Shown here piece by piece: positions 7,311-33,830 of a DNA stretch of 64,000 bases. The stretch lies in assembly GCA_965645245.1 (NCBI GenBank), contig OZ287067.1:682001-746000 (forward strand), given 5' to 3'. The translations under genes and the position numbers were made by a program. The notes below the pieces were generated by a model that was not told where the DNA came from, ran no database searches, and worked only from the letters and a program-made list of their open reading frames with translations. The stretch comes from Massalongia carnosa. Taxonomy: Eukaryota. Numbering within the stretch: position 1 is the first letter of the stretch; every line of letters begins with the position of its first letter.

Positions 7311-9310
7311 TTATTCAACCCATGATCTCGCTGAATCACCTCCTATTTCTTGACTGGCCGGACGTTTCGATGACGTCAAGGACTCCTGAATGACAATTTC
7401 ATCCTGCAGCAATCTGTCTTCCATTTCACATAGATCGCTTTCGTCAATGTCGATGCCAGCAAATTGTAACTTCTTTTTGATATCCCCAGGTCGGTTGAGG
7501 GTACGCTCATTCATGTAGATAAACATGAGTTTATCTACGCTTATCGAGCTCATGGAATTGCGCGTTTTATTCATGATCAGATTCATGACCGACCAGCTTC
7601 TTTCGGCCAATACCGAATTACCAGGAAGTTTCATCACCTTTCTGGCTAAGCTGCTAAGGGTTGATGCAAAATTTCTGCTGAATGTCCAAAACAGCTCCGG
7701 ATCCATTTGATACGTCCAGCATTCGGAGCTTGTATGAAAGCCATCTTCTTGATCGCGAAATGCGAGCCATTGCTTCATGGCAGTAGCTGCCTCTGCACTA
7801 ATCAGATGCTGATTGAAAAATCTATGCATTAGCGGAGCAAATGTCGGCTCCGTAGATACGCCAATCACCTTTATAGCATGATTCTGAGGAAGCAAAAGAG
7901 CTGCTACCACATGAAGCTCAGTAATCTGACTGAGATATCTGTCTTCCCAAATCACCTGAGCAATGTGATTCAAATCCGTCTCGTCGTCTTCATTGGCAGC
8001 CATTGAATATAGATGAGATCGAATCTTATTCCAGGTGTTGGCTATGGTATAAAGTTTATGCTCTTCGGCCTCGGACATGTATTGAAACTGATGTATGGGA
8101 TCCATCACTTTCTTGACAATGGTCAGCTTTTTCCAAAAAGAAAAGTCATTGACGAAGCTTCTCAAAGAATTCTTTCTTCCCTGATCAATGCCGGGATTCT
8201 TTTGTTGAAAATAATCCAATAAGGCCTGCTGATTCCTGAGGACTGAGTTTAATAAGCCTATCGTCGTTCCCCATCTGGTAAGAACGTTAAGAATCAATGA
8301 ACGACGTTGTTGATAGGCCTAGAAGTTTGATCATCAGAAAGGTTGGTCATCAGAAAGTTTAATAATTCAAGAATTTGGCATACCTTCATTTGATAACCCC
8401 TTAAAATGGACATTTCCTTATTCGACCCCCGAAAGCTGGTTACTATCAATTGTGCCTTTTCTATAACCTCCGAAAAGAATGGAAATTTCAGTATGTCTCC
8501 CATCAGCAATTGCAGACCATGACTGTCGCAGGGAACGAAAAACACGTGTTTCATCTCTGGAAATTTTGCTATCTCCGTCCACATAGCCTTCATGGTTGCA
8601 CACGTATCAGTGGCAATGCAATTGATTCTCCAAAGCTGATCGTTGGTTGCTTCCCTACAACCTTTTATCACCCATTGAGCTTGAACGACAGCACTCATCT
8701 TCTCGGCAACACCAGCATCAGCTTTCAATTGAAATCCTCCTCCATTGGAGGTGGCGGACGGGGGAACATGACAACAGAGATTTATAACACGTTCTTTTCG
8801 AATGTTAGCTGTCTCGTCAGTGAAGAAGTTCAGGTACTTAGAAGCATTCAATTCCTTGATAACTTTCGATTTAACGATGCCATAGATTTCGTCCAACAGC
8901 TTGCCAGCAACAAGGCCAGAATGAGGACGTTTATAGCCCGGATTAAGTGCCTGATGATGAGCAATAACGTACGGATTTTCGAAGTGGTTAAATGGCAGAT
9001 TTGTCATATAGACAGACATCGCAGCTGCTCGATGTGCTGATGCAATTTGGGCTTGATTAAGGGGACGAATCAACGTAGTGATGGGCAGTTGAATAGAGGC
9101 ATTACTGAGAATACCCTTCTGTTTTCTAGCTTTCTCTTTTTGATAGGCATCACATTGATTTAGATGCTGTTGTCCCCTAGCAGCATTTCTGGTTGATTGA
9201 TGACCGCAATGAATGCATTGATGTTGAGGATTTTTTAAGCCCTCAGTAATGATATCCTTGAAATTCTCATCTACCAGGTGATTTTTCTGACGTCCACCTC
9301 GTTGAGACAT
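7311..9310 (-). CDS. hAT transposase, 644 aa after splicing (exons 9310-8384 and 8318-7311)
   Basis: BED-type zinc finger (CIHC...HLNQC), catalytic D (FFTDET) and D (IATDT), CxxH (CDSH), TRW, catalytic E in LAERSWS, and C-terminal dimerisation region. The 65-nt intron GTATGC...CTGAT...TAG (8383-8319) joins the two ORFs in phase 0. Confidence 0.93.
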
Positions 9311-9483
9311 AATAGATGATAATAGAAAGATTCCTGATTATAAGTGCAATTACCTAGTAAATCGAGGTACTCCGATATTCTACTAATTGTTATGTGTGCT
9401 TAGGTAATTAATTTCCAAAAATTCAGGGTCCATGTCAGCACGTGATGAATTTTTCGTGTCATCTTGTCAAAAGAGCGAAATTT

Positions 9484-9494: not shown

Positions 9495-10445
9495 ATGGAC
9501 CTGAGTAGATCTATACACTTGATTGGCCGGTTGGAACGATGGGGTTACGTATGTGGAAGCGGAAGTATAGAGTACATGCTCATCTCTCGTTTTCCAACTT
9601 CCTCTTTAAATGCTTTAGACATTTCTATGCATATTTCGTTCCGATTATCATCGTTGATCCCAAGGTCTCATCGCTATTAGTGTACGTGTTCCTTTGGACT
9701 TAGAAAATTCTGTTATAGAACATGTTCAAGTCCTTGAACCATCACGGTTAAAGAGGCCACCTTCTAGTTCTGGTCCGTCCACCCGTATTTTTGACGAACA
9801 TTTCCTCTATTCCATTCGACCCTACGGAGTAAAATGAGCCTGAAACATTGTTCGAGGTGGCTAATTTCTTAGCGATAGGCACGGCCTACTCGCCTCATGT
9901 TCTAGATGTCTTCTTACTCAAGGCCTCCCGCTGCAGTGGCATGCTCATCAACCCATAACAGCCGTTGTTTGTCGTTTTTCGTTCATTCCTTACGGAGGGT
10001 GTTTCGTGATGAGATGAGGATTCTGTTATAAACTTGTATCCGTGGCGAAGATTTGATGAGAATCCATTATGGCTAAATTTCAGTTTGAAAAATGAAAAAC
10101 CAAAAGGAGCCGTCATTGTGGCTTTTCTATCTCGGGTTGGAGCGCGGATGGCAGAAGCATGATTACCGTTTCGCAACACGGCTTTCCGTAAGTCTCTCTA
10201 AGCTATTCCAAGTATTCCAAGTAGCTCTGGCCCACTCCGCATATATCACATGCAGCGATAACGCACGGTTTTGTTCATCTATGTGTGTATCTTGGGGCTT
10301 CCAGACGATGACGATACTATGTACTAAACCTTCATAAAGATTAATGATGCTATGAAATTTTAAGACCCCATAAAGTGTCCTTTCGGTTGCTTCGTCCTCC
10401 AAGGGGTCGAAATTGAAAAAATTTCTCGTCTTCTTAATATCTGTC

Positions 10446-12075
10446 ATGACCTTTTCTTCCGTTTGTCTACTTATGACAACATTTGCCAACCTGTTTCCGC
10501 AGTTGATCGATGCATCCAAGGACGGAAACTTTGGTGTATCTAGAATATCATTTGCATTGAACCCCGACCAGCAAAATGATCCAACCCAGCTATCCGATGA
10601 TTTGAAGAGGTTGAGCAATTCGCTCCAGTCAAGTGACAGCTTGCCCATTCTAGCTACTGTTGCTGGGACGGGGATTATTTCCTCCAATACCGTGGACAAA
10701 CCAGACCCCTTACCCCTACTCATCTCACCGAACCCGGATGGGTTATCTGATTCACTCTTTGCATCAAATTCTCAGGACTTCTCAACCTCCGTGGACGCAT
10801 TTTCTGCATTACTTGACACGAAAGTTTCACCTACTCCCTCCGGGCGGGATGAGTCGACGAAACTAGCTCTAGTACCTGTTTCAAAGATGGAGGAGGGATT
10901 AGGCGGAGGTGCCAGTAGCGGAGGGGCGAGTATTCAGACAGCCCCGGAAGGAGCGTCCTCTGGAACAGACGGTGTTCCCAGCGGTGACAGTGGTCTAGGG
11001 ACCGATTCTAATGGGGAAGTCAATCCTGGCGGTTTTAATCCTAGCGCGGTTGCACCTGGAACAGGAAATACTCCTGACACTAGACCTCAGGGGAGTCCTC
11101 GAACACGGAAAAAAAAGAAAGAAGAGGAAGACCCTGACCCGGGCTTCGATTGCTCTAAGATGGAAATGCCGGGCCAGTATGTACGTGGCGACGCAAGAAG
11201 TCTCATGGGACGCAACCCGAAAGGCCGATACTGCTGTACACAAGGACCTCCCACCAGAGGAACTAATCCCCCCAAAGGTGGTACAAGGCAGCCCCCACGG
11301 ATGCGAACCAAAACTACGAGCCGATGTTGCATTGACTGTACGTTTCCTCATAATTATCTGCTAGCCTTTCATCGCCGAGGACGAGTTCTATGCTATAAAT
11401 CCACTGATCTCGTTCGACTTGCATAGATGATCCTGAAGACCCGAGGTGTTTTAGCCCCAGAAACCGGTGGTGTGGTTTTTGTAGGGTTGCTGGGGTAAGT
11501 GAAGCTTTGTCTTGAGACCAGAACACATCCAAAAAACCCCCATTGTTGATTCTGCCAAGATATACTAATGGGAGCCAAACATGTAGAGAGCAATTCTATT
11601 GGACGCCTATAACCCTTACTTTAAAACCGTAACCCCTATTACCAAGTACCCCGAGGCTTACCTTTTCGGTCCCGACGCTCGCAAGATTTTCGACTCGGAA
11701 CGTCAGCAGGAAGGACGAGAGTTCTGGGATGGGCCACAAGGGCCGATAAAAACTGGATACCGACATACCAAGGCGACAACCTGTACCCCCACCTACATGG
11801 CGTCCCAGGGCATCGTGCCCAAGCCCGCGCAGCGCAATAGGGACCCTGATTGGGATTCCTGCGCTGCTGACCTCGCCGGAGGACTCGGCGGGGATTCGGA
11901 AGCCATCCTGGATGGCGAAGTCGACCTGCAAGCAGAAGCTAACCCTACAGACCCAAATGATCAGCAGGCCGAATCCATGGACGATGCTAATCAACTCACT
12001 CAAAATACTCCAGGAGATGAATATGGAACGCTAAACTCTCGCGCCAAGGGAGGCAAACGAAGTGTCTGGGTTTAA
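10446..12075 (+). CDS. Hypothetical, probably secreted protein with a low-complexity N-half and a Cys-rich module (~482 aa, 3 exons)
   Basis: Exons 10446-11337, 11427-11494 and 11587-12075 join in frame through canonical introns (GTACGT...CTGAT...TAG; GTAAGT...CTAAT...TAG). Hydrophobic N-terminus; 10 Cys in the C-terminal half. Confidence 0.7.
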
Positions 12076-18453: not shown

Positions 18454-21400
18454 ATGTCGTCGAATAAGTCGTCAAACACACATCGACCCGGCAATTCAAG
18501 GCAAGGAAGCAGTTACCAAGATCAACAGAAACTCGTCAATCTCCAGGACCTCGGTCTTGTACCGAAGAACCCAGGCGAAAGACCGGTTAACAGACGCAGT
18601 AAGCCCCGTCACCGAATTTCCCCCTACGACATTCACCATCCAACTCTCGGTGCTGCTGAAGCCATAGTGAGACATGTCTGTGCATGGGATCGTGCATTGA
18701 GTTGACTTTGTTGTGCCCGGCTTCTCTAGATCAGTCATCACAGGCAACCGCTCGCCCATCTCTCGCTGCTGCCCAATCGAATCAGTCCGTCTCCAGACCT
18801 GCCTATAGTCGGAACCTCTCGACGCAATCTTCTTCCGGGCGTGTGCTATCGCAGGTGCCTGCTGAGCGTCTTAAGGCATCCAAGTCTCGGGGCAGGAGGA
18901 TCTTGCCAGGCCGTATCGCCGCTCAACGGCTTACTCGAACCCCGATTCCGGTATACAGCAACCCTGTGCAGACATCGTTCAACTGGAGATCAGGTCGTCC
19001 GATGGCTGGAATGTTGGAGTTGGAGCGCTCGCGAACCCGTCGTGAGAGAACATTCATTGGCAGCGAATGCGCCGTGTGTGAGGAGCCTTTAGAACACACG
19101 CTCCGAGGCGAGCGGATCTTGCAATTCTCGTGCGGGCACGTTTCCCATGAGGCTTGCTTCTACGAATACATCAAAGAGTTTGACTCGCAATACTGTCCGA
19201 CATGCAACGCTCCGCTAGGACTGGATACCAGCAGGGGTGGAAATGTTCTGGACTTGGGTAATGTTTTCAAGGCTCTTGTATGCTCTCATCTGCTGACCCG
19301 CGCCCAGAGAAGTTGAGTAGCATCGTTCGTTCCGTGTCCATGAACAACGAGGCACGAGAGAACCAGCAGCGAAATACACAGACCACCCCCCTGCCATGGG
19401 ATGCCAACGCGGGTCGAGATCGACCGAAGAGCAGGGATTCCAACCATCGAAGTACCCAGCGTGACAGCCGCGACTCCCAATCTCAACGAGAAAAGGACAG
19501 CCGGGAAACTCAGCGGGAGCGCGTGGAGATGTATGGCAGTACGAGTCGTCACCAACACTCCAGGAACGAAAGCGGTGGCACCGGAGCAGGCTCCTCGGGA
19601 GAGTGCGGCGAGCCGCACCCCAACAACACCAACAACGGTGGCCGCCGACATGACTACGACGTACAGTCCATGGAAACCGCTTTGAGCAGCCCAAGGGCGA
19701 GCATTACAAAGAACCCAATACCTGCACCTACCGTTACCGTGAGAAGCGAATATCCCACGCTGAGCCGATCACGGCAACAGCAAAGCTTGACCTGTTTGGT
19801 TACGATTGAAGTTCCTGAAGGGAAATGGAGCCCTGATCCTGAAGATCTACGAGGAGCGCCTACGTTACCATCGATGCAGCAGGACGCTCCGGTGGCTCGC
19901 TCTAAATCCCCCGAGCAATCTCGGCAGGTCGAGTGGGCGTTTGAGTCTCCTGAGATTTTGGAAGAGATCACCGAAGATCTTCGAGTTCGTGTGGACAACT
20001 GGCACGGGCTAGATTTTCAGAGGTTTGCATCCAGCGACGACAGGCTTGTGCTACAACCACGCTAACTATTCACAGGTTTGGTAAGCTACGTCTCTACGGC
20101 ACCGTGCGAGTCGGGAAAGACCGCCAGTCATGGCAGGAGCTTGAATGCTTTCTGTTTGCGGAAATGCTCATATGCGTAAAAGAGAAGAAGGGGGCTCCGC
20201 CCCAATATGCGGAAGGCAATTCTAAGCGCAAACTCACAAGGTGCACGCTAAAAGGGTCAATTCTGATTAAAAAGCATCTCAAGCATGTAGAATCTACTCC
20301 AGGTTAGTGTCTTCGCGAACACTCCTGTGGTGGTTGCTAAAGACCATGTTTCTAGATGAGCCGGTGTTGACCCTCAGTCTCTCGGTGCAAGATCTGCAGC
20401 AATTTCACTTACAATTTCAAAGCCGCAGTCAAGTCGAGCAGTGGAAACGGGCGCTTTTGGATCTGAACAATCCTGAACCTCCTGGACAGAGCCAGGACTA
20501 TGAGCAAGAAAACTCAGGGACGGATGAAGAGGATTTCCGGGCGAACAAGCTGAAGAGGGTTTCATCTGTCAATTCGTCGTACGGGGCGGGGAAGTCGGTC
20601 AACACCGCGCCGACCGAGTATACGGCTTCCGGAAGAGGCATGGGTGTGCAAGAGACACGTTTACCTGCATCGGTGCATGTGCCCCTCGACATTGTGGTGG
20701 TCATTCCAGTCTCCTCGTCTATGCAAGGCCTTAAAATAACCTTGCTGCGTGATGCGCTCAAATTCCTAGTCCAGAACCTTGGGGAAAAAGACAGAATGGG
20801 CTTGGTTACATTTGGCTCTAGCGGAGGCGGCGTGCCGCTGGTCGGCATGACCACCAAAGCATGGACTGGTTGGACCAAAATTCTGAATTCAATTCGCCCG
20901 GTAGGGCAGAAGAGCCTTCGAGCAGATGTTGTGGAAGGGGCAAACGTCGCGATGGACCTTCTCATGCAACGCAAGGCCAATAATCCGATTGCGACCATAC
21001 TGTTAATCAGCGACTCGTCGACATCTGATGCGGAAAGCGTTGATTTCGTCGTCTCCCGGGCTGAAGCTGCAAAGTTCGTCGACCTGTCCCTATCATTTGT
21101 TCGGATATCTGCGTGCAGACCTTTTGTGGATTACGAATGCTGACACCTGTTTTCTACCAGGGTTGCCATCCACTCGTTTGGATTGGGCTTAACGCACAAA
21201 CCCGACACCATGATTGAACTATCCACACGGACCAAAGCATCATATACCTACGTCAAAGATTGGATGATGCTGCGGGAGTGTGTTGCAGGCTGCTTGGGGT
21301 CGATGCAGACCACATCGCATCAGAACGTCAAATTAAAACTGCGTCTTCCCGAAGGTTCGCCCGCGAAATTTGTCAAGATATCGGGCGCCCTTCAGATAAC

Positions 21401-22371
21401 GAAGCGGGCCACCGGGAAGGATGCAGAAGCTGCTCTTGGCGATCTGCGATTCGGCGACAAACGAGGTAAGATTACCCGACCGTCAAATCCTTCCCTTTTT
21501 CTGATTTTAATGCTTTATTCCAGATATCCTGGTTCAGCTGGTGATTGCTCCGGATAATACATCGCAGGATCATTTACCACGGGATCCATGGGAGGACATT
21601 GTCTCTGGACTAGAAGCTCTTGGTGGGCCTTTTGACTCGGATGAACAGAGGTCGCTGAGCGTGGAAGAAATTCCTCTGATTCAAGCCGACCTTACGTACG
21701 GGGATATACTTCGGGAAGGGACTATCACCCACCCATCAAGGCCGTCTCTGCTGGCCATTACCATGTTACCTGCGAACCCAAGGGCCAAGTCCTCGTCAAG
21801 GCCCATCACACCTCCCATCCCACCCCACCCAAGCATCGTGCAGCGACGGATGGAGCTTCTGACTTCGGATATGCTAACGAGAGCATTGACTCTCGTATCG
21901 CGTGGCCAGCACGATCGCGCGCATCACTTGCTGAAGGAAACTCGTAGCATTCTCAAAGGCCTTGGCAAAGGTGGGCTGCCACCAATTCCTCAACCAAATT
22001 CGAAAATCACGAGCGCGCCGGCGAGTCTTCACGGCGCAGAAACTGCAGATGAGCACCCGGAGCGGCAACCATCGCCTTCATCTGATGCCGGTGTCGTCCC
22101 AGCTTCCGGCATTGATGCCATCACCTTAAACGCCCTTGACACGGAACTCGAGTCGTCGCTGGAATGGATCAACCACCCGGCGGTCTTCGGCCGCGATTCT
22201 AGGAAAGCGGTTTTGCAAGCCATCGGCGTCATTGCGTCGCAACGGGGATACACGTTCCGTACCCCTGCGGAAAGTCTATGGGCAGGCAGGGTAGCAGGCA
22301 TTAAGCGACTCACGAAGCAATCACGGGACTGGCGGGACGCCGGGGACGAAGCTTTGATGGAAGAATCTTGA
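18454..22371 (+). CDS. FAR1: Far1/Ste5-like RING-H2 / PH / von Willebrand A scaffold protein, multi-exon
   Basis: RING-H2 (CAVCEE...CGHVSHEACF...CPTC), PH-like region (WQELECFLFAEMLICVKEKK) and vWA (PLDIVVVIPVSSSMQGLK...DRMGLVTF). The conserved-looking ATG is at 19002 (MAGML); the upstream exon from 18454 is tentative. The symbol rests on domain architecture only. Confidence 0.8.
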
Positions 22372-22559: not shown

Positions 22560-23760
22560 GGAAGAGTGGATTATCGGGCATGTTTAACGGTCACTTGGAT
22601 GATTTTATTTTGGAACGCCTTTTCTCTCTGTCCCTCGGGAGTTGATCTCCATCGCCGCTAGCGAATTTGTTGTTTATTTGATACCCCTGATGTGGTTTTG
22701 GGCGGCCGTGGACAAGATACTGGATAGGGTCGGATGGAGGGGGCTCGCTGAATTGGGGTTTATTGACGGTCGATCGATCAGTTAGTCAGTTCGGGCTATA
22801 GTATGTGGGTGGCCGTGGGGGGTCGATGTACGATATGAACTGGCTAGCATCTGGTATCGTTTGGTTAGTAGAGCCATCTGGTGTGAAAGCCGGATGGACT
22901 GGTATTTATGTTTAGGTAGGGTATTAGAAGCACATTCAACGTCGTGCGAGTTTGTGTTTTTGGGACATCCTTTGGAATCTCTATAGGACTTTGACTCTGC
23001 CGACCTAGGTGGATGGACCTTCGCTCGCACATCCTCTGGAGACGTTTTCGTCGCTACCGTTCAGTCAGTCATATCGAGAGAGGTAAATTTTCAGTCGGGG
23101 GAGGGTCGTTCTAGTTTGCAAGCAAGGACAAAGAAAGAGTAACTATCTTTTGCTTTGGAATTTTTTTTGGTATCTATCCGTCTATCCGTCTAGAGTCGCT
23201 CACTCTATTTTCGTCCCTGGGTATTTTATACATCATTTCGTGATATCCTTCCTTTTCTGTCTTTTTCTTCTTTTTCGATTAAGTCTTTTCTTTTTCTTTT
23301 CATTCAATTTTTGATGAAGTCTGAGCATGACAAATAAATAGATAACTAATTTAAATGAATGGGGGTTTTAAACGGAATAGAATAGATGATGGTTTCTGTT
23401 TTTGGCTCTGGTCATGCAACGTAACTGTTTGGAACGGAAAATTTTTAAAGCGAAAACCCTCTTTCTGTTGATTTGCTAAAGAATGAAAAAGTCTGTGGTC
23501 TTCATGACAATTGATCTGATTGAAGCAATAAATGCATGTAACCGGTAGTCGCTTTCACTACTTTCCCCCTGGTGGGGTTAATGAAATGCGGTTGTAATAT
23601 CCCGTCTTCCGTACGCTGTACTTACCACCTTACATACTCAAGACTTTTGTCATCTAGTTATCATGCAGCTGCAGCTGCATGTGGTAGCCGTTGGCAAGGT
23701 CCACGCCAGAGGATTCAATACAGATCCATAACCCTCGACGGGAGTAAATAACCCAATACC

Positions 23761-25348
23761 ATGCCTCCCTCGCTCCCCCAATATATCTTCCGCCCGCGAA
23801 GCTTCCGCCCGCCCATGACAATCCATCCCTCCATCCGTCGCCCCACCTCTAGATTTCCCAACAACGGCCGCTACCGCCCCTCCACCCGCGTCCAGCTCCT
23901 TCACCTCTGGCACTCTTCCCCTGGTTTCCGTAGGGGCGTTGTCGCGGTCTCCGTGAGCGGCGTAGGCTTCGTGGGCTGGAATCTGGAGCTCGTGCCCGTT
24001 ACGGGGCGGCTGCGCTTTAATTGCGTGCCGACGAGCGTGGAGCAGCGCATGGGGGCGCAGATGCACGAGCAGATTCTACGGGACTACGAGGGCCTTGTGT
24101 TGCCGCCTGGCCATCCGGCGTCACGGTTGGTAAATAAGGTGTTGGAGAGGTTGGTGGGGGCTTTGGGAGAGGGGAATCAAGGGGCAGGGGAGTGGGAGGC
24201 GGTAGTGATTGATGATGAGGCGATGGTGAACGCTTTCGTGGTGCCGGGGTAGGTTGTTCCTATGAAACAGGGGGCGCGCTGTATACTTAAGCAGAGAAGA
24301 GGCGGATATCTGTGTTTCTATGCTGATCGGGGGGGGGGGTTTTTTAAAATCACAGGGGCAAAGTCTTCGTCTTCACCGGCCTCCTTCCTCTCTGCAAAAC
24401 CGAAGCCGGTCTAGCTGCGATCCTAGGCCACGAAATCGCCCACAATGTCGTCAACCACGCCGCCGAGCAGCTCAGCCAACGATTCATCCTTACTCCTCTC
24501 GTGATTTTTGCGTCCCTTTTGCTAGACGTGTCGACGGGGCTAATCAATGGTATATTGGATATTGGGTACTCGAAACCGGGGTCTCGAAGGCAGGAGGTAT
24601 GTTTCTATTCCGATTTCTGGGATGGGCAGATGTGAAAGGGCTCTTCCTTTCAGAGGAGGCGAGAAAGGATGGACTGATACCTTGGGTTTTAGTCGGAGGC
24701 GGATCTTATCGGACTTTGTACGTTCTGAATCTCCAGGTACTCGGAATTTCAAAGCAGCTAACCAGAACAGTGATCATGGCCAAAGCCTGTTACGACCCCG
24801 AAGCCGCCGTGTTAGTGTAAGGCCCCTTTTGATTCCGCAGAAAACCCTGCAAATATCTAGACAACAAGGCTCATAAACTTCTCGCAGCCACGAGAAGATG
24901 CAAAACGCAGCGCCCAATCAGATCCCCCAGTTTCTCTCCACACATCCATCTGTAGGCCTCCTTTCGCCCTCTCCTAGCGGAATAGACCGTACCGCGCGGG
25001 AAGACTGATCCCTCTCTAGGGTAAAAACCGCGTGAAGAGACTCAGGGAATGGTAAGTTTAGCGTCCTTGGAAATCCATCAATTGTGTGCAAGTTGGCTGT
25101 GCTCGACGTAAGAGCAAACACGAGAGGGTAATAACCACTTCTCCCATCAACAGGCTCCCTCAAGCCCAAGAGCTGCAGGCCCAGAGCGATTGTGGAGGGA
25201 TTAGGGAACATGGTCAAGATCCCCTCTCCCACTTTCATTTCCTCCCCCTCCATGCAGAGTAAAATAAACCGATTCTGGAGGAAGAAGCATCTAATGGCCT
25301 CTAGTTGACGGCTTTAACCGCGCCGTTCATTCCGAGTGGTTCTGGTGA
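23761..25348 (+). CDS. OMA1: Mitochondrial M48 metalloendopeptidase OMA1, many small exons
   Basis: LELVPVTGRLRF, WEAVVIDD..VNAFVVPG|GKVFVFTG, HEXXH motif GHEIAH, SRRQE|SEAD.IGL, MAKACYDPEAAV, PQFLSTHPS. The 3' exon boundary is tentative. Confidence 0.9.
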
Positions 25349-26120: not shown

Positions 26121-27226
26121 TTATGCCTTCTTGCCAAACACCCAGCCCATCTCACCACTGGGCCAGCTGTGTCTCTCGCTGCCCCACTCCAGCGTCCACC
26201 CTTCCGCTCCCGCGTTCCCACCCCCCATCAGCGCCTCCACCTCATCCCCCCACCTCGTCCTCAAGCACGAGACCAACCCGTCCAGCACCACCACTACCGG
26301 CACGACCGGCAGCACGTAAATCCAAAACAACAAGCCCCAGCGGCCCCAGAAGCGCCACCAGCCCACGGCCCACAGCACGGGGGCCAGCATCAAGATGGTG
26401 AACAAGCTCCCTAGCGTGCGGGCCTGCAGCTCGAACACGGCAAAGGCACACGCGGTGCCAGTCGTGCTGCGGAGGATGCGGCGCGCGAGTGGGTCGGGGA
26501 AGTGGTGGAAGGCGAGCGAGAAGAGGTGGATCTGTTTCTGCGGGAGGGGTTGGTGGCGGCGGGGTTCGGCGAGGGAGAGGAGGTTCGAGGGCGCGGAGGC
26601 GGCGTCGATGGGGCAGGGCACGTAGCGGATGTGCGGGCTCTGCTGGGATGCCGAGCGCCAAGCGGGGATATGTGGGTGAAGGTCGGTTAGGATGAAGTCG
26701 ACCCCGTCAGGGGCGCTGGCGCTACTTTGCGGCGAGCTTCCGTTGAGCTTCGGCGCGGTTCTCCGTTTCAGTCCTTCCCTGCGGTCCGCAAGGCTTTCCC
26801 CGCCTTCGTTCCCATCCCCGTCGTGCACATACCCATTCCTCCCGTCCAGGCGCGCTTCCCCAGAAGCTGCAGCGCGCAGTGCCTCGTTCACCACTCTCTC
26901 GATCTCACACGTTGGGCCACCGGCGCCCGAGCAGAAATCTACAAAGGTGTATTCATTGATGGAGTCGCCAAGGAGCGCTTGCAGTTTGCGCGCGACGAGC
27001 GTGGCCGGGCTGCAGGGTTGCAAGAGCGGGATGCGGAGGGTCCAGAGGAGGGTGAGCGCCGATTGGACGTGGATGCGGAGGAGGGGGGGGAACCTGTTTC
27101 GTTAAGGAAAGGGGGCGATCGTTAGTGAAGATTTGAAGGGGGAGCGTTGGGGGGAGGGGGTTTCTACCAGGCCTGGTCGTCGATTTCGAAGAGGTGGAGG
27201 CGGGGGATGGAGAGGGAAAAGGACAT
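26121..27226 (-). CDS. Putative class I SAM-dependent methyltransferase, ~343 aa, 2 exons
   Basis: Exon 1 27226-27168 (MSFSLSIPRLHLFEIDDQAW), intron 27167-27094, exon 2 27093-26121. SAM motif I VDFCSGAGGP, motif II ILTD, then FSLAFHHF and a hydrophobic C-terminal segment. Confidence 0.7.
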
Positions 27227-27637
27227 TCTCTCGGTGGCCAGAAAGTAGAGATGGCGGTCCCACTGGTTTCTGACCAACTTGGAGAAAAGGACTTCCTATG
27301 CTCAACTACAACAAAGCATTGTTGATTGAGATTCGTTCGATGAAGGTTTGGAAGGAGGTTTTTCCATGATCGACCAACCTTGTTCCGACAATGCAGGAAA
27401 CCCACCTTCGTGGTGTCGATACATACCTATGATTGATGAATGAACTCAATGCACTATATATTTCTACGTTTATATAATATATTGACAAGATATTCCGAAC
27501 TCTCTGCGCTTGAGCGTCCTGATGCAATTTGACATGTACAATCCTCCGTCCCCATTATCTTTCCATGACATAAACTATGAATATGCTCTAAATCTGCCAA
27601 AAGACGCTGCGAAATGAGAACGAAATCTAAGGTTCTG

Positions 27638-28994
27638 TTAGTCCACGTCTTCCATCATCAGCCCGTCTGGTATCTTTCGTCGCCTGAGCACCATCATCTC
27701 CAATGCAATTCCAGGCCCAAATGCACACGCAACCACATTCTCCCTCCCCTCACCCATCTTCCGCAGCTTATCCATCACGCTGATGATCGTTGCACTCGAG
27801 CTATTCCCGTAATTCATGTATATTTCATAACTGGCTCGGAGGTGCTCAGGGGTTAGGTTCATTGCTTGCTCTACCCCTGTAATAATTGTCGACCCTCCAG
27901 GATGTAATGCCCAATCGAAATCAGCAGCTAATGGAAGGTTATTGCTGGTGCTATGGAGCTCGGGGAGGGATTTTATTAGGCTTTGAAATGCGGGCGCGAC
28001 CGCAGCGGATGCTAAGAAGGGGACCCGAGGCGTCAGAACAACCTTCCACCCTGGTGCAAGAATAATCAGTAATGAGGCCAACCTCACAAATTCCAACTCG
28101 TACCTAATGGATCCACATCGAAACCCAAATCCTGGTCTGTGTCTTCCAATATTTCATGCCTCCAGCCAAGTAAATCGTATATTGACTTGGAAGGGTCGCT
28201 ATCCCCCACGCCATTGCTGAGTACTATTGAAGATGCGCAGTCGCTGAACAAGCACACCCCGATCCTCACGGCTTGATGCTGATCGATCGAGTCAAGTTCG
28301 GATCTGATGAGGAGACTCGAGATTTCACACGCTATCACCAAGACTCTAGCAGGTTTGTTCCGAAACGACGATCCGAGCGCCAGGTTCGAAGCGGTTCGTA
28401 TGGCTGCCAAGCCACCAGAACACCCAATTCCATGGAGCAGAACCTTCTCCACGCTGTTCTTAATGCCTAATTTCTTGACAACGAAATGATCAAACCCTGG
28501 GTTGGCCGAGTTTGTGCAGGTTGTTGACACGATGTGGGTAATATCATCGATGCTTCCGCCCCACTCTTTTATGGCTTTCTTACACGCATTGACTGACAGA
28601 CGCACACCTTCCTTGCGAAAATAGTCGTTAAGCTCGGTAATACTTGGTGCGTTTGGCTGGTTCACTAATGGATGGTCGACGTCGCCGATGGCGGCGCGAG
28701 TCTCTATGCCCGTATAACGATTGATGGAGAGGACCTTTTTAAGCCTTTAAGTGGCAACGCCGAGATTAGTAGGCTACAACGATGTAAACATGTATGGAGA
28801 GCAGTAGGAAAATGATATCGCACTGGAAAGTCTCACGCTATTGACGATGGATAGAATCGATTTGCCAAAGTCTCCACCGCTTCTGGTCCCAGCGAAAACG
28901 GTGGGTACTCAACGCCGAGTCCCAATATGGACAGATTCAAGCCGCTGGAGAAACTATCGGTCGCTGTACTGTGGTGCACGGCAGAAGGCGACAT
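27638..28994 (-). CDS. Type III polyketide synthase (chalcone synthase-like; ORAS/CsyA type), 403 aa, 3 exons
   Basis: Exons 28994-28837, 28744-28104 and 28050-27638. N-terminus LSILGLGVEYPP; catalytic Cys (GIGCSGG), His (WALHPGG) and Asn (YGNSSSA); CLFSD; AFGPG signature. Confidence 0.95.
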
Positions 28995-29475
28995 GGTGGT
29001 TTATTATTGACAGATCGGTCTGGTAAAGACTGTTGGGAGGCTACTCTGCAGATACGGAATATTGCCGAAAGGAGAGGGTTTCGAAAACGCAGGATTTTTA
29101 CTTCACCCCGGCCCATGATTGTGAACGATAGAATTCCATTTCACAACCCAACCCCAACCTCAAACCCCAACCCCAACCAAATACCTACATAGTACACCGT
29201 CCACCAGTCATGGCGTAATGAAACTCGAGCTAAGCGGCGACGAGATGACATCATTGACATTCAGGAACGAAAAACGCAGCGAATGATTGGGCAAATTGTG
29301 GAATTTGAATCTGGAATCTGGAAAATCCGGAATCCGAAATCTTGGATTGGTTTGCGCCACACGGGCCGCCCTCCGAGCGGAAATACTTTCTGTTTTTGGA
29401 CACTTAGGGCTCATGAAGCACGTGCCCTAGTCGATTGCAGTCTTGGGTAGCACCTCGATATGCGAAAGCCTCAAC
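28995..29475. promoter_or_regulatory. Putative bidirectional promoter between the type III PKS and P450 genes
   Basis: 481 bp between head-to-head ATGs. Contains tandem GAATCTG/GAATCCG repeats (~29308-29340) and CACGTG at 29419. Confidence 0.55.
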
Positions 29476-31375
29476 ATGTACATCATTCTACTCTACCTAC
29501 TTGTCGTCCTAGTATTGTGGGGTTTCCAAGGTCAACGAACGTCAATTAGACGTCATGGAAGAAGACTCCCGTACAGAATGCTTCTCTCCCCCCAAAAAGC
29601 GAATCTTATGCTGACAAAATACAACTAGTCGTCCACCAGGCACGCTACCGTTTGTAGGGAACGGCATCTGGTTTCTCCAGCCTCGTCATCGTCTTCTAGA
29701 CTGGTTTGTGCAATGCGAACGGCAGAGCGACCTAAGCACCTTTGAGATCTCAGTCCCATCCCTTCCACCAGGGGTTGTGATCAACGATCCGAAAAATGTA
29801 GAGCATGTCCTGAAAAACGACGAGCTCTTCATCAAAGGCAGCTTCTTCCGATCGAGGTCTTGGGATCTTTTTGGTAGGTTTTGGGCATGCTTAGCGGAAA
29901 TGGGGTGTCGGCGAAGAGCCTTGTTATATGCTGATACTTTTATCGCCCCAGGCAATGGAATCATCAACGCTGACGGGGATTTATGGAAGATTCAGCGAAA
30001 GGCAGGCCTTCGATTTTTCAGCAATGCCAACCTCAAGGAATTCATTGACCAAATCTTGCCCCCCTACCTCCATGACTTAGAAGAGCAACTCGACGCTATC
30101 GCGAGATCCTCCGGAGTAGTGGATCTACAGGAGCTTTTCTTGGAACTCACCACGCGCTTGATGGGGCAGATGGCATACGACGTAAGTATGTATTCGGGTG
30201 TAAACATACCAATTATGTATCCTCGAGCACCTAGATATGCTGCAAGGGATTCAGGGGCTGAACAACAAACCTTCTTCCGCAGATGGACATACCAGCTTCT
30301 CTGCCATTTTCAAAAGCCTTTGACTTCGCCTCCGGAGCCATAGCTGAGCGTTTCCAAAACCCCTTCTGGAAAGTCAAGGAATTCCTTTTCGGCGCCTCCC
30401 TCCGTAAAGCAATCTCGGAAGTAAAGCTCTTTAGTACCACCATCGTTGCGGCTGCTGTGCAGAAGAGGCAAAACAGACTCGAACCGAAGGAGGAACCCGT
30501 AGCTTCAAGCATCAAATCAATTCCTCAAAGTAACCTCATCGACTCCCTGCTAGATCACATCAACGACCATCAAGTAGTCGCCGATGCAGCAATGAATTAT
30601 CTTTCCGCAGGTCCTTTTGCCCCCCTTTTCTTTTCAAATGCACTTGTGCTAAATCACAACAACAGGAAGAGACACAACAGCGCAATCCCTAACTTGGACC
30701 TTCCATCTCCTAAACAACCACGCCCCCATACTCCACACCCTCCTCGCCGAACTAACCTCCCCACCCCCCCTCCCAAAAAGCCGCCTCCGAACCTTTGATT
30801 CCACCCTTCCTCCCAACCTCCCGTACACCACCGCCGTCTTCCATGAAAGTCTCCGCATCTATCCCCCTGTCCCCATCGAAATCAAAGAATGCACCGCCGC
30901 CACGACTTTCCCGGACGGGACATTCCTGCCCAAAGGCGCGCTGGTGATGTGGATCCCCTGGGCCATGGGGCGGTCGAGAAAGATCTGGGGTCCTGACGCC
31001 GACCAGTTCCGGCCGGAGCGCTGGCTTCAGACCGGCGTCGACCCAATTGAACCTGTATCCGCGAGTGACACCGCAGCACCAGCCAAACTGCTCTCGAAAA
31101 CCGCCTTTGAGTTCCCCGTTTTCAACGGCGGTGCGCGCGCGTGTTTGGGAAAGAAGATGGCGGAGGTGTTGGCCGTGGCCGTGATCGCGAGACTGGTGGA
31201 GAGGTATGAGTTTGCGGAGACGGTCGACAAGGGGAAGGGGATGGTGGAGGAACCAGGGGGCGGGGAGAGGGTGAGCCAGAGTAGTTTGACGTTGCCCATG
31301 AAGGGGGGTTTGCCGTGTTTTGTGCGAAGGAGGGACAGCTTGTCAGATGGGCAGAACCGCGGATCTCGGAACTGA
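29476..31375 (+). CDS. Cytochrome P450 of the fatty-acid omega-hydroxylase-like type (CYP86/CYP94/CYP704-like motifs)
   Basis: N-terminal anchor MYIILLYLLVVLVLW, PPGTLPFVGN hinge, GNGIINADGDLWKIQRK, I-helix AG|RDTT, ExxR (ESLR), PERW, heme motif FNGGARACLG; spliced across several introns. Confidence 0.92.
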
Positions 31376-32124: not shown

Positions 32125-33516
32125 CTATGCTATGGTGGCTGCCCCTGGAGGGTCAGTAGTGGCCTTTTGGTCCTTGTCGATCCTTGCTATTAGCTCCTTG
32201 CTGATCGGGAGCTGGGCCGGTTGTCCAACTTGCTTAAGTAACGAGGCGAGGCGCGCTTTGCTTGCTGGAATGTTTATCTCCGCGCCTAAACTCAACCACT
32301 CGTAAGCCGAAGCCCATAGTTCAATTCCGAAGGTCGCAGTGTCTTTTTGGTCCTTCGTGACTGTATTGAATAGTGGTGCTTCATGAAAAGGTAGGGGGTC
32401 ATCAGAGTTTCCGGGTTCATCGGTGAGCAGATCTTCCAAAATCGCTGCTGGCGAATCTTCCGAGGCTGTTTCTCCAGAGCGGGGGAACTCTCTGTTCTGT
32501 AACTGTTGATAATAGAGTTTCCCAAGGTACTGAATTGCCTTCGCATTGCCTGACGATGCGGCTTTCAATAAGTATATTTCAGATTGGTTTGATGACGAAT
32601 CGGAGAACCTAAGCGCGAGCCAAACGTATGCGAGTGGATCATCGTATTCAAAGGCAGCTTTCTTAAGTGCCTCCTTCGCCGCTTCCAAATCTCCCTTCTG
32701 GACACTGAGCCTAGCGACCGCTTTCAATGGATTAGCCAGATTAATGCACATGTTTCCAGCACCCTCACTTAGGCTCGGATCGCTCGAGACTTTGGTACTT
32801 TCGACAAAGGCCTCAAGGGCACGGGTTTTCTTGCCTTGGGACTCGTAGATCCTCCCTTGCAGGTAGAGAGCGACTGGATTCCTCGCAGACACAAGGCTTT
32901 GCAAATGCTTGCGCGGCTGGTCAAAGGCAATACTGCCCAATTTGCCGGTCCTGATACCTTGATCAATCAAGATCAGGGTTGCATTTGGATCTTGCAGACT
33001 TGAAGCTGACATCAAAAGGTCTTGAGCAATCGCATAAGTAGCCTCAGTTCTTGCCATAAGCAACGCTCGGCCAAGCTCACTTAACACTGATAGTTCGATG
33101 CGATGTTCTGAGTGCCATTAGTGATGAAAATATCAAAGGCATCAAACATTAACCATACTTAAACAGAAATCTTTAATAGATCCCGAAGTAGATTTGAGTT
33201 TCTGGAAGTCATTTAGAATAGCCTCAGCTGTCTTCGAGGATACTGAAAGCGCGCCATGTTCCTTCGCGGCATCGAAGATGTAGTTTGGCCATTCCTGAAC
33301 AGCAGCAGTCTTCTTTGGTGGTGCTGACGCGTTTGAAAAGCGCAACGTTTGCGTTGCCTTTTGCTTCCGCCTCTGTTCGATATTCTCTACTTTGGGGGAG
33401 CGAGCGAGGGCTCGTAAACATTGCCTGGTGGAGAAACGAGATAGTCCAAAGCTTACATTATTAGAACGTCTAGAGCTCGCAAGACATATTTGAGTAACTA
33501 TGCCATACATGCTCAT
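32125..33516 (-). CDS. Sel1-like-repeat protein, probably mitochondrial (Mss2-like), 2 exons
   Basis: Arg/Ser-rich N-terminus resembling a presequence; Sel1-type repeats (ALYLQGRIY, YLLKAASSGNAKAIQYLGKLY, AYEWLSLGAE). The intron GTATGG...CTAAT...CAG joins ORFs 33142-33564 and 32125-33087. Confidence 0.7.
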
Positions 33517-33830
33517 ACATACCGCAGCAGCTGCGAGCAACAAGGAGGTTAGGGTGATCCGCACGTGACTGGATAACTATTTAGTTCAAACAACGGAAGA
33601 ACTCCTCCGATTCCGCGACTAAAAATCTTAGCAGCACGCACAAAAAACGTTTCCCGGAGCAAGGGTATTACACCCCGAGACACTAGCAAATTCCAACTCT
33701 CAATGTTATTTTCGCTTCTTCAATACGTCTAACACCTATTTTAAGCTCGAGGTCTTCTACGCAATAACCACCGTGTTCTCTACTAGATTCACAAATACAG
33801 TCTAAAGTTGCGAAAGCTGTCGAGGAAGCG

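What the first reader, a model, noticed from the sequence alone, without database searches (positions are those of the whole stretch)
26121..31375. Three-gene type III PKS / omega-hydroxylase P450 / methyltransferase cluster: candidate uncharacterised phenolic-lipid pathway
Seen in sequence: an intact type III PKS sits head-to-head (481 bp) with a P450 carrying CYP86/94/704-like motifs (GNGIINADGDLWKIQRK, AGRDTT, FNGGARACLG). A co-oriented SAM-methyltransferase-like gene follows 411 bp downstream, and the block is flanked by unrelated housekeeping genes. Established: ORAS/CsyA-type fungal type III PKSs extend long-chain acyl-CoAs into alkylresorcinols, alkylresorcylic acids or pyrones. The same enzyme logic appears in Streptomyces SrsABC (PKS + MTase + hydroxylase), sorghum sorgoleone (ARS + OMT + P450) and plant sporopollenin (PKSA/B + CYP703/CYP704). 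Inference: a minimal pathway making omega-oxidised, methylated alkylresorcinol/resorcylate lipids, possibly macrolactones or cross-linkable wall monomers. The product cannot be read from sequence, and the cluster may be conserved and already noted in other fungi.
Basis: partly seen in the sequence, partly recalled or inferred. Interest (0 to 1): 0.8.

Follow-up and report, generated by a model that had tools for sequence, protein, structure and literature searches.

The report
Conserved fungal phenolic-lipid gene cluster
Three neighbouring fungal genes (a polyketide synthase, an orphan P450 oxidase and an unannotated methyltransferase-like enzyme) stay together across distantly related fungi, often with a fourth small unknown gene, so they probably build one modified phenolic lipid that has not yet been identified.

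Summary
In detail: three intact genes, with the 481 and 411 bp gaps as stated. The PKS belongs to the Neurospora ORAS clade. The P450 is family CYP544, function undetermined. The third gene has no Pfam, NCBIfam or PDB sequence match but models as a class I SAM-methyltransferase fold with a hydrophobic hairpin.

The linkage is conserved. All three genes lie within 10 kb in 17 of 24 informative lineages, and other neighbours are not shared between Lecanoromycete-, Chaetothyriomycetid- and Leotiomycete-like loci. It dissolves in Sclerotiniaceae and in several Leotio-/Sordariomycete-like loci.

Best reading: a fatty-acid-linked pathway to a methylated, oxidised long-chain alkylresorcinol lipid (0.72). 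Omega-oxidation and the product are inferred only. PKS-P450 proximity is in print, and this scan noted the three-gene cassette before in another genome.

The parts
27638..28994 (-). Type III PKS, ORAS clade, 403 aa; exons 28994-28837, 28744-28104, 28050-27638
   Evidence: Gene model; Pfam Chal_sti_synt_N/C; best PDB sequence hits 3euo/3e1h (Neurospora), E 3e-85; 77-79% identical to Lasallia and Cladonia PKSs
29476..31375 (+). Cytochrome P450 of family CYP544, 535 aa, N-terminal hydrophobic anchor; exons 29476-29570, 29629-29873, 29952-30181, 30283-30610, 30666-31375
   Evidence: read by eye against CYP544C1/C3 in the supplement of PMC10608907; 66% identical to Cladonia borealis P0252
26121..27226 (-). 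Class I SAM-methyltransferase-fold protein with no Pfam family, 343 aa, hydrophobic hairpin at residues 246-290; exons 27226-27168, 27093-26121
   Evidence: no family match; model of orthologue P0011, pLDDT 89.5; fold matches to class I methyltransferases, Z up to 14.6, rmsd 3.4 over 217 residues; DxCxGxGGP in 203 of 263 family hits
28995..29475 (.). Divergent PKS-P450 intergenic region (481 bp), putative shared promoter. Relatives carry CCGAGG (FarA/CTF1-type site); this copy has no exact site
23752..24632 (+). Part of the flanking M48 peptidase (Oma1-like) gene; used as the synteny control, not part of the cluster
   Evidence: Pfam Peptidase_M48; shared only with Lecanoromycete-like loci
32125..33576 (-). 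Flanking TPR/Sel1-like protein gene; synteny control, not part of the cluster
   Evidence: shared with 3 of 80 loci (one lineage)

Best explanation
The three genes are the core of an old, conserved pathway that turns long-chain fatty acyl-CoA into one modified phenolic lipid. Shown: the enzyme classes, their intactness and their conserved linkage. Inferred from ORAS/BPKS biochemistry: the PKS extends a C16-C18 acyl-CoA with three or four malonyl-CoA and closes an aldol ring, giving an alkylresorcylic acid or alkylresorcinol. Inferred from fold, linkage and the Phaffia fusion model: the membrane-associated third protein methylates the ring with SAM (O- or C-methylation undecided). Inferred from family likeness only: CYP544 oxidises the far end of the alkyl chain (about 50%; ring hydroxylation to a hydroquinone about 25%; other 25%), most likely after the PKS step. 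A fourth small hydrophobic four-helix protein, beside the PKS in many relatives and about 45 kb away here, is probably a membrane accessory or a further enzyme. In most relatives the PKS-P450 promoter carries a FarA-type site, so the pathway is probably switched on by fatty acids.
For: All three genes within 10 kb in 17 of 24 dereplicated metagenome lineages with at least 2.5 kb on both sides (24 of 57 lineages, from 80 loci): 8 of 8 Lecanoromycete-like, 6 of 6 Chaetothyriomycetid-like. With the triad masked in 31 long loci, only the fourth gene was shared between Lecanoromycete-, Chaetothyriomycetid- and Leotiomycete-like loci. The third gene changes orientation yet stays: 9 co-oriented, 8 convergent, 2 moved upstream with the P450, of 19 lineages. 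In named genomes PKS and P450 have consecutive locus tags in 18 of 21, and the third gene is within 5 tags in 13 of 19. P450 and third gene have consecutive accessions in 4 of 4 Xylariales assemblies checked. Phaffia CED83135.1 joins a type III PKS to this domain. One Chloroflexota MAG has PKS, FAD oxidoreductase and this family in one operon-like run. CCGAGG in 17 of 21 divergent promoters, against a shuffle mean of 4.6 and maximum of 10 in 1000.
Against: No enzyme activity or product was tested. The cluster is absent within the fetched flanks in 6 of 24 lineages, and the P450 in a 7th. PKS and P450 are 42-168 tags apart in 3 of 3 Sclerotiniaceae, and the third gene is on another contig in 6 of 19 named genomes. 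PKS and third gene are 97 and 261 accessions apart in 2 of 2 Xylariales pairs. Published surveys saw no cluster at the ORAS locus (PMC6985275) and call the Hypoxylaceae PKS unclustered (PMC8403587). The Oma1-like neighbour is also kept in 5 of 8 Lecanoromycete-like loci, so part of the signal there is plain synteny. This window's promoter has no exact CCGAGG, and the third and fourth genes show no enrichment (5 of 19 each). Only 1 of 80 bacterial relatives of the third gene is next to a type III PKS. The Phaffia fusion is a single gene model and may be two merged genes.
Confidence: 0.72

Rival explanations
1. Neutral microsynteny: the genes were neighbours in an ascomycete ancestor and have simply not yet been separated; they work in unrelated processes.
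For: Oma1-like gene kept beside the block in 5 of 8 Lecanoromycete-like loci. Block dissolved in Sclerotiniaceae and in several Leotio-/Sordariomycete-like loci. No cluster seen at the ORAS locus (PMC6985275).
Against: No other neighbour survives between the three main groups, while these four genes do. Linkage survives inversions and reshuffling. The same pairing appears in a basidiomycete fusion model and one bacterial operon.
Confidence: 0.1
2. Two loosely tied modules: CYP544 and the methyltransferase-fold protein act together on fatty acids or foreign phenolics (oxidation, detoxification), and the PKS only shares the fatty-acid-responsive promoter.
For: P450 and third gene stay adjacent where the PKS has moved (4 of 4 Xylariales assemblies; L043 and L047). 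The third gene's family occurs without a PKS nearby in 79 of 80 bacterial loci. A FarA-type site fits fatty-acid catabolism.
Against: The third gene is fused or adjacent to a PKS in Phaffia and lies downstream of the PKS in 17 of 19 lineages. Dispersal of a pathway does not need loss of function.
Confidence: 0.1
3. The third protein is a SAM-binding, non-methylating enzyme (decarboxylase, hydroxylase or pericyclase type), so the product is not methylated.
For: Fold neighbours include LepI, HpiI, RdmB, TamK and GRAS domains, and all matches are at 16% identity or below. No curated methyltransferase family matched any of 52 members.
Against: The best-scoring solved matches are methyltransferases (BpumL Z 14.6, NovO Z 14.1, tied). 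The glycine-rich motif and acidic strand-2 residue are conserved in most of 263 hits. Bacterial kin give weak Methyltransf_25 scores (E 0.003-0.2).
Confidence: 0.08

Closest known systems
Neurospora crassa ORAS (PDB 3euo/3e1h) and clade-1 fungal type III PKSs (BPKS, SmPKS, CtPKS)
   Same: Best PDB hit (E 3e-85). Catalytic triad, second Cys (ORAS C120) and the residues I number as ORAS S186, F210 and F252 are kept (read from the alignment; their tunnel role is recalled). ORAS prefers long-chain acyl-CoA (PMC6274091, passages).
   Different: ORAS is known from recombinant enzyme work, with no cluster seen at its locus (PMC6985275). Here the PKS has conserved tailoring partners. ORAS M189 is Leu here.
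Clade-1 'type III PKS + P450' neighbourhoods (Navarro-Munoz & Collemare 2020, PMC6985275)
   Same: P450 is the most frequent neighbour domain listed for clade 1 (0.34 per cluster family).
   Different: That survey counted Pfam domains. The third and fourth genes have no Pfam family and could not be counted. In the text seen, the P450 family is not named.
Soppiline cluster (Penicillium soppii PspA/PspB/P450)
   Same: Fungal type III PKS whose alkylresorcinol is then oxidised by a clustered P450 (PMC6985275, passages).
   Different: It needs a partner reducing type I PKS (clade 8). No such gene appeared among the window ORFs scanned, and a methyltransferase-fold gene is present.
Bacterial methyltransferase-oxidoreductase-type III PKS operons (hidABC, Planctomycetota)
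   Same: Same three-step logic: alkylresorcinol synthase, oxygenase, methyltransferase (PMC10896814, passages). One MAG uses this very methyltransferase family in such a run (L142).
   Different: The oxygenase is a flavoprotein, not a P450. Homology of HidA to this family was not tested. O-methylation (HidA) and probable C-methylation (Gimesia) both occur.
CYP544 (fungal P450 family similar to plant CYP86/CYP94)
   Same: Sequence matches CYP544C1/C3. The family is conserved in 5 of 5 Lecanoromycetes (PMC10608907) and resembles CYP94/clan CYP86 (PMC3505482).
   Different: Function listed as 'non determined' (PMC10785452). None of the passages seen ties it to a type III PKS.

Membership tests
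Type III PKS (chalcone synthase superfamily) | PF00195 + PF02797 domains and Cys-His-Asn triad | tested here: met
ORAS-type long-chain alkylresorcylic acid synthase | Closest solved relative is ORAS; active-site residues kept | tested here: met
ORAS-type long-chain alkylresorcylic acid synthase | Makes tetra-/pentaketide resorcylates from C16-C20 acyl-CoA | not testable with these tools
   Needs an enzyme assay; PMC6985275 notes that products in a fungal host can differ from recombinant ones
CYP544 | Over 40% (family) or 55% (subfamily) identity to a named member (thresholds recalled) | tested here: met
   66% to Cladonia borealis P0252, which by eye is nearly the same as CYP544C3 of Cladonia grayi printed. 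The named sequence itself was not aligned by a program.
Fatty-acid omega-hydroxylase (CYP86/94/704-like activity) | Terminal hydroxylation of an acyl chain | not testable with these tools
   Only family likeness (automatic names 86B1/94A1)
Class I SAM-dependent methyltransferase | Rossmann-like methyltransferase fold | tested here: met
   Model of orthologue P0011; Foldseek E down to 2e-7; Z 14.6, rmsd 3.4, 217 aligned
Class I SAM-dependent methyltransferase | Glycine-rich motif I and acidic residue after strand 2 | tested here: met
   DFCSGAGGP and TD in the window protein; motif found in 229 of 263 hits, TD/SD in 242 of 263
Class I SAM-dependent methyltransferase | Match to a curated methyltransferase family | tested here: inconclusive
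   0 of 52 members matched a methyltransferase family in Pfam or NCBIfam at E<=1; bacterial kin score below cut-off
Class I SAM-dependent methyltransferase | Methyl transfer from SAM | not testable with these tools
   Needs an assay
Soppiline-type hybrid cluster (clades 7/8) | Adjacent reducing type I PKS | tested here: not met
   No PKS I domain among the 37 window ORF pieces scanned; immediate neighbours are identified as other genes
FarA/CTF1 regulon | CCTCGG/CCGAGG in the promoter | tested here: inconclusive
   Present in 17 of 20 relatives' divergent promoters, absent from this window's; binding not testable
Erg28/EXPERA-like membrane proteins (fourth gene) | Family or fold match | tested here: inconclusive
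   Atlas lead only (Erg28 in 13% of members, score 0.79); DUF4345 in 2 of 16 members; best Z 8.2, no clear fold match

The most novel reading that the evidence does not exclude
A four-gene, fatty-acid-inducible pathway dating back to the ancestor of Dikarya (ORAS-clade PKS, CYP544, a new membrane-anchored methyltransferase family and a new His/Glu four-helix membrane protein) makes a bifunctional phenolic lipid that serves as a general membrane or wall component of lichen and black fungi, a fungal parallel to plant sporopollenin or cutin monomers. It would give the first native role for the most widespread fungal type III PKS clade.
Probability: 0.2. Interest if true: 0.85.

Novelty: new variant of a known kind. 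Interest (0 to 1): 0.58.

Why it matters
The physiological substrates and roles of fungal type III PKSs are stated to be unknown (bioRxiv 10.1101/2024.11.25.625244, discussion), and CYP544 has no assigned function. A small conserved gene set names the partners to co-express or delete, which makes both questions directly testable in culturable black yeasts. It also points to two protein families without a Pfam model. The chemistry itself (type III PKS + oxygenase + methyltransferase) has bacterial and plant precedent, which limits the surprise.

Tried and rejected
Expression: no RNA holder was listed; three contig runs were laid and cannot show expression. PKS plus third protein complex prediction: no verdict, score 0.00, alignments not used. 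Pfam, NCBIfam and PDB sequence searches gave no family for the third gene. Fourth gene: no Pfam family for the own copy, no PDB sequence hit, no clear fold match; the weak rows (copper-storage bundles, sigma-2 receptor Z 7.2) were rejected as common four-helix arrangements. A HxxxE likeness to EBP is recalled only and was not supported by these searches. A general link of the third gene's bacterial kin to type III PKSs was rejected (1 of 80 loci; 1 of 80 next to a P450). The 899-aa Bacidia P450 model is not a P450-PKS or P450-methyltransferase fusion. No gapped CGG motif reached 8 of 21 promoters. The careful tree did not finish, so the quick tree is used. Ten paper searches showed no paper that, in the listing or the passages read, describes this gene set. 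The Xanthoria elegans cluster is the soppiline type; PMC5358931 had no hits; PMC4350166 concerned another CYP. The cluster figure supplement of PMC6985275 is a picture and could not be read, and the preprint's neighbourhood supplement was not seen; either may show the cluster. Bertrand 2018 and Muggia & Grube 2010 (lichen type III PKSs) were seen only as citations. Look-ups of earlier scan notes by sequence and place found nothing.
Full report
OBSERVATION. Spliced models are open, with the stated 481 and 411 bp gaps and all quoted motifs, and intron positions recur in related loci. The flanks are an M48 peptidase and a RING/PH/VWA protein on one side, a TPR protein and a U3-associated protein on the other. 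The 52-Mb genome gave one match each for the PKS and the third gene. Best named relatives are lichen-forming Lecanoromycetes (PKS 73-79% identical), so the host is probably one (inference).

THE PARTS. The PKS is an ORAS-clade enzyme: best PDB hits are 3euo/3e1h, E 3e-85, with the triad and the active-site positions kept. ORAS and Botrytis BPKS make alkylresorcylic acids and alkylresorcinols from long acyl-CoAs (PMC6274091, passages). The P450 is CYP544: it reads along CYP544C1 and C3 in the supplement of PMC10608907 (by eye) and is 66% identical to the Cladonia borealis protein. CYP544 is conserved in 5 of 5 Lecanoromycetes, resembles plant CYP94 and clan CYP86 (PMC3505482, passages) and has no determined function (PMC10785452, table passage). 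'Omega-hydroxylase' is therefore a family-level guess. The third gene matched no methyltransferase family in Pfam or NCBIfam (0 of 52 members) and nothing significant in PDB. A confident model of the Lecanora orthologue (pLDDT 89.5) has the class I SAM-methyltransferase fold; the top matches, an N-methyltransferase (BpumL, Z 14.6, rmsd 3.4, 217 aligned) and an aromatic C-methyltransferase (NovO, Z 14.1; its role is recalled), are tied. It has a hydrophobic hairpin at residues 246-290. The family is large (2291 representatives at E<=0.001) and includes bacteria.

CONSERVED LINKAGE. A metagenome scan with the PKS gave 80 loci (best 80 of 102), forming 57 lineages at 90% DNA identity. Of these, 24 have at least 2.5 kb on both sides; 33 shorter ones were left out of the count. 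P450 and third gene are both present in 17 of 24, the third gene alone in 1, neither in 6 (the third-gene hit in L052 is weak, 65 bits). By nearest named PKS (rough labels) the triad is in 8 of 8 Lecanoromycete-like, 1 of 2 Pleopsidium-like, 6 of 6 Chaetothyriomycetid-like and 2 of 8 Leotio-/Sordariomycete-like lineages. In named genomes, PKS and P450 have consecutive locus tags in 18 of 21; the three exceptions are Sclerotiniaceae, 42-168 tags apart. The third gene is within 5 tags in 13 of 19 and on another contig in 6 (from, which list only the best 120 hits each). In 4 of 4 Xylariales assemblies checked, P450 and third gene have consecutive accessions, while in 2 of 2 pairs the PKS is 97 and 261 accessions from the third gene.

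CONTROL FOR PLAIN SYNTENY. With the triad masked in 31 long loci, ordinary neighbours were shared only within a class. The Oma1-like gene is kept in 5 of 8 Lecanoromycete-like loci and in none of the 22 others; one three-locus group joined two Sordariomycete-like loci with a poorly labelled one. So within lichens part of the signal is ordinary synteny, but across classes it is specific. The third gene also changes orientation and stays: 9 co-oriented, 8 convergent, 2 upstream with the P450, of 19 lineages. Related lineages are not independent, and no genome-wide null could be run.

A FOURTH GENE. The one masked gene shared across classes is a ~130-aa hydrophobic protein: 13 of 31 long loci, 25 of 80 loci, 12 of 24 lineages, with all four genes together in 9 of 24. 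In Chaetothyriomycetid-like loci it lies between PKS and third gene; in several Leotiomycete-like loci it remains near the PKS after the others have left; in Cadophora malorum it is two tags from the PKS. It is absent from this window and from the 8 Lecanoromycete-like loci, but the own genome has one intact copy on the same contig, G000:C1:662507-662896 (minus), about 45 kb from the cluster. It models as a four-helix bundle (pLDDT 92.6) with invariant H11, E15, Y78-H79 and H114. Its family and function stay open. I infer a membrane accessory or small enzyme of the pathway.

FUSION AND BACTERIAL ECHO. P0428, Phaffia rhodozyma CED83135.1, is a type III PKS followed after a short linker by the whole methyltransferase-like domain. 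It is one gene model and could be a merge; either way the two are adjacent in a basidiomycete. PMC7763939 (passages) places the Phaffia PKS in a small early branch and says the C-terminal extensions of that branch resemble no known protein. In a quick tree of 61 rows the Phaffia domain sits near the base of the side that holds the named fungal sequences, apart from the bacterial ones (SH-aLRT 100; its own fork is not firmly resolved). This fits, but does not show, an ancestral link. Among 80 bacterial loci, one Caldilineaceae MAG has PKS, FAD oxidoreductase and this family in one run, the layout of the hierridin/Planctomycetota operons (PMC10896814, passages); 79 do not.

REGULATION. The commonest 6-mer in 21 divergent PKS-P450 regions is CCGAGG, in 17; the best 6-mer of shuffled sets reached 12.9 on average and 14 at most. 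For this motif alone, dinucleotide shuffles gave 4.6 on average and 10 at most in 1000. It is the CTF1/FarA site of fatty-acid genes (PMC5068947, passages). It is also upstream of 11 of 20 other PKSs (shuffle mean 5.2, maximum 10 in 300). Controls: 5 of 19 upstream of the third gene, 5 of 19 upstream of the fourth, 2 of 19 downstream of the P450 (these control stretches are shorter, 300-500 bp). Against: this window's own promoter has no exact site.

MECHANISM. Most likely (0.72) the genes make one modified phenolic lipid: long-chain acyl-CoA to alkylresorcylate or alkylresorcinol (PKS), ring methylation (third gene), and chain-end oxidation (CYP544, about even odds; ring hydroxylation is the main alternative), at a membrane and under fatty-acid control. 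Rivals are neutral synteny (0.10), a PKS-independent P450/methyltransferase module (0.10) and a non-methylating SAM enzyme (0.08). Macrolactones and wall polymers have no evidence here.

WHAT IS KNOWN. PMC6985275 (abstract, sections 3 and 13 whole, passages of 12 and 14-16, rows of Table_1) already reports P450s beside clade-1 PKSs, and no cluster at the ORAS locus. The kingdom-wide preprint (parts 1, 2 and 4 of 7 and passages) has no occurrence of 'methyltransferase' in its main text; its supplements were not seen. PMC8403587 (passages) calls the Hypoxylaceae PKS unclustered. PMC2851567 (passages) found the Sordaria PKS not induced in sexual development, which argues against a spore-wall role there. 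Ten searches (listed under Tried and rejected) showed no description of this gene set, but most subscription papers are not in the library.

VERDICT. A real, conserved and apparently uncharacterised pathway: a new variant of the known type III PKS + oxygenase + methyltransferase kind, with two unannotated protein families and a clear experimental test. Interest 0.58.

Noticed in passing
L082:1492-1881 (G000:C1:662507-662896, minus strand), outside the window: Own-genome copy of the fourth conserved cluster gene, 129 aa, next to a pyruvate dehydrogenase E1-alpha-like gene (name recalled from the sequence).
   Followed up: yes
protein P0428 (Phaffia rhodozyma CED83135.1): Type III PKS joined to the methyltransferase-like domain in one gene model, annotated only as chalcone synthase.
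   Followed up: partly
protein P0402 (Aspergillus karnatakaensis): Methyltransferase-like domain joined to an FAD monooxygenase domain; a single model that may be a merge.
   Followed up: no
L142:2535-5786: Caldilineaceae MAG run of type III PKS, FAD oxidoreductase and a member of this methyltransferase family.
   Followed up: partly
L090:3665-5777: Polyangia MAG with a P450 directly upstream of a member of this methyltransferase family.
   Followed up: no
window 7311-9337: hAT-family transposase (DUF659 + hAT dimerisation) in two overlapping minus-strand frames; intron or frameshift not resolved.
   Followed up: no
window 10374-11426: 350-aa low-complexity frame with a hydrophobic start and a Cys-containing end, no Pfam match.
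   Followed up: no
window 18660-22371: RING + PH + VWA protein (Far1/Ste5-like, name recalled), kept near the cluster in two lichen-like lineages.
   Followed up: no
L041:12208-19918, L043:12038-14816, L047:11956-14673, L030:4658-7827, L050:1930-4676: A further gene or gene pair is shared near the PKS by 5 Leotiomycete-like loci; not identified.
   Followed up: no
L070:11748-13081, L072, L073:14800-16142, L078: A different, distant P450 lies 4-6 kb downstream of the PKS in some Sordariomycete-like loci.
   Followed up: no
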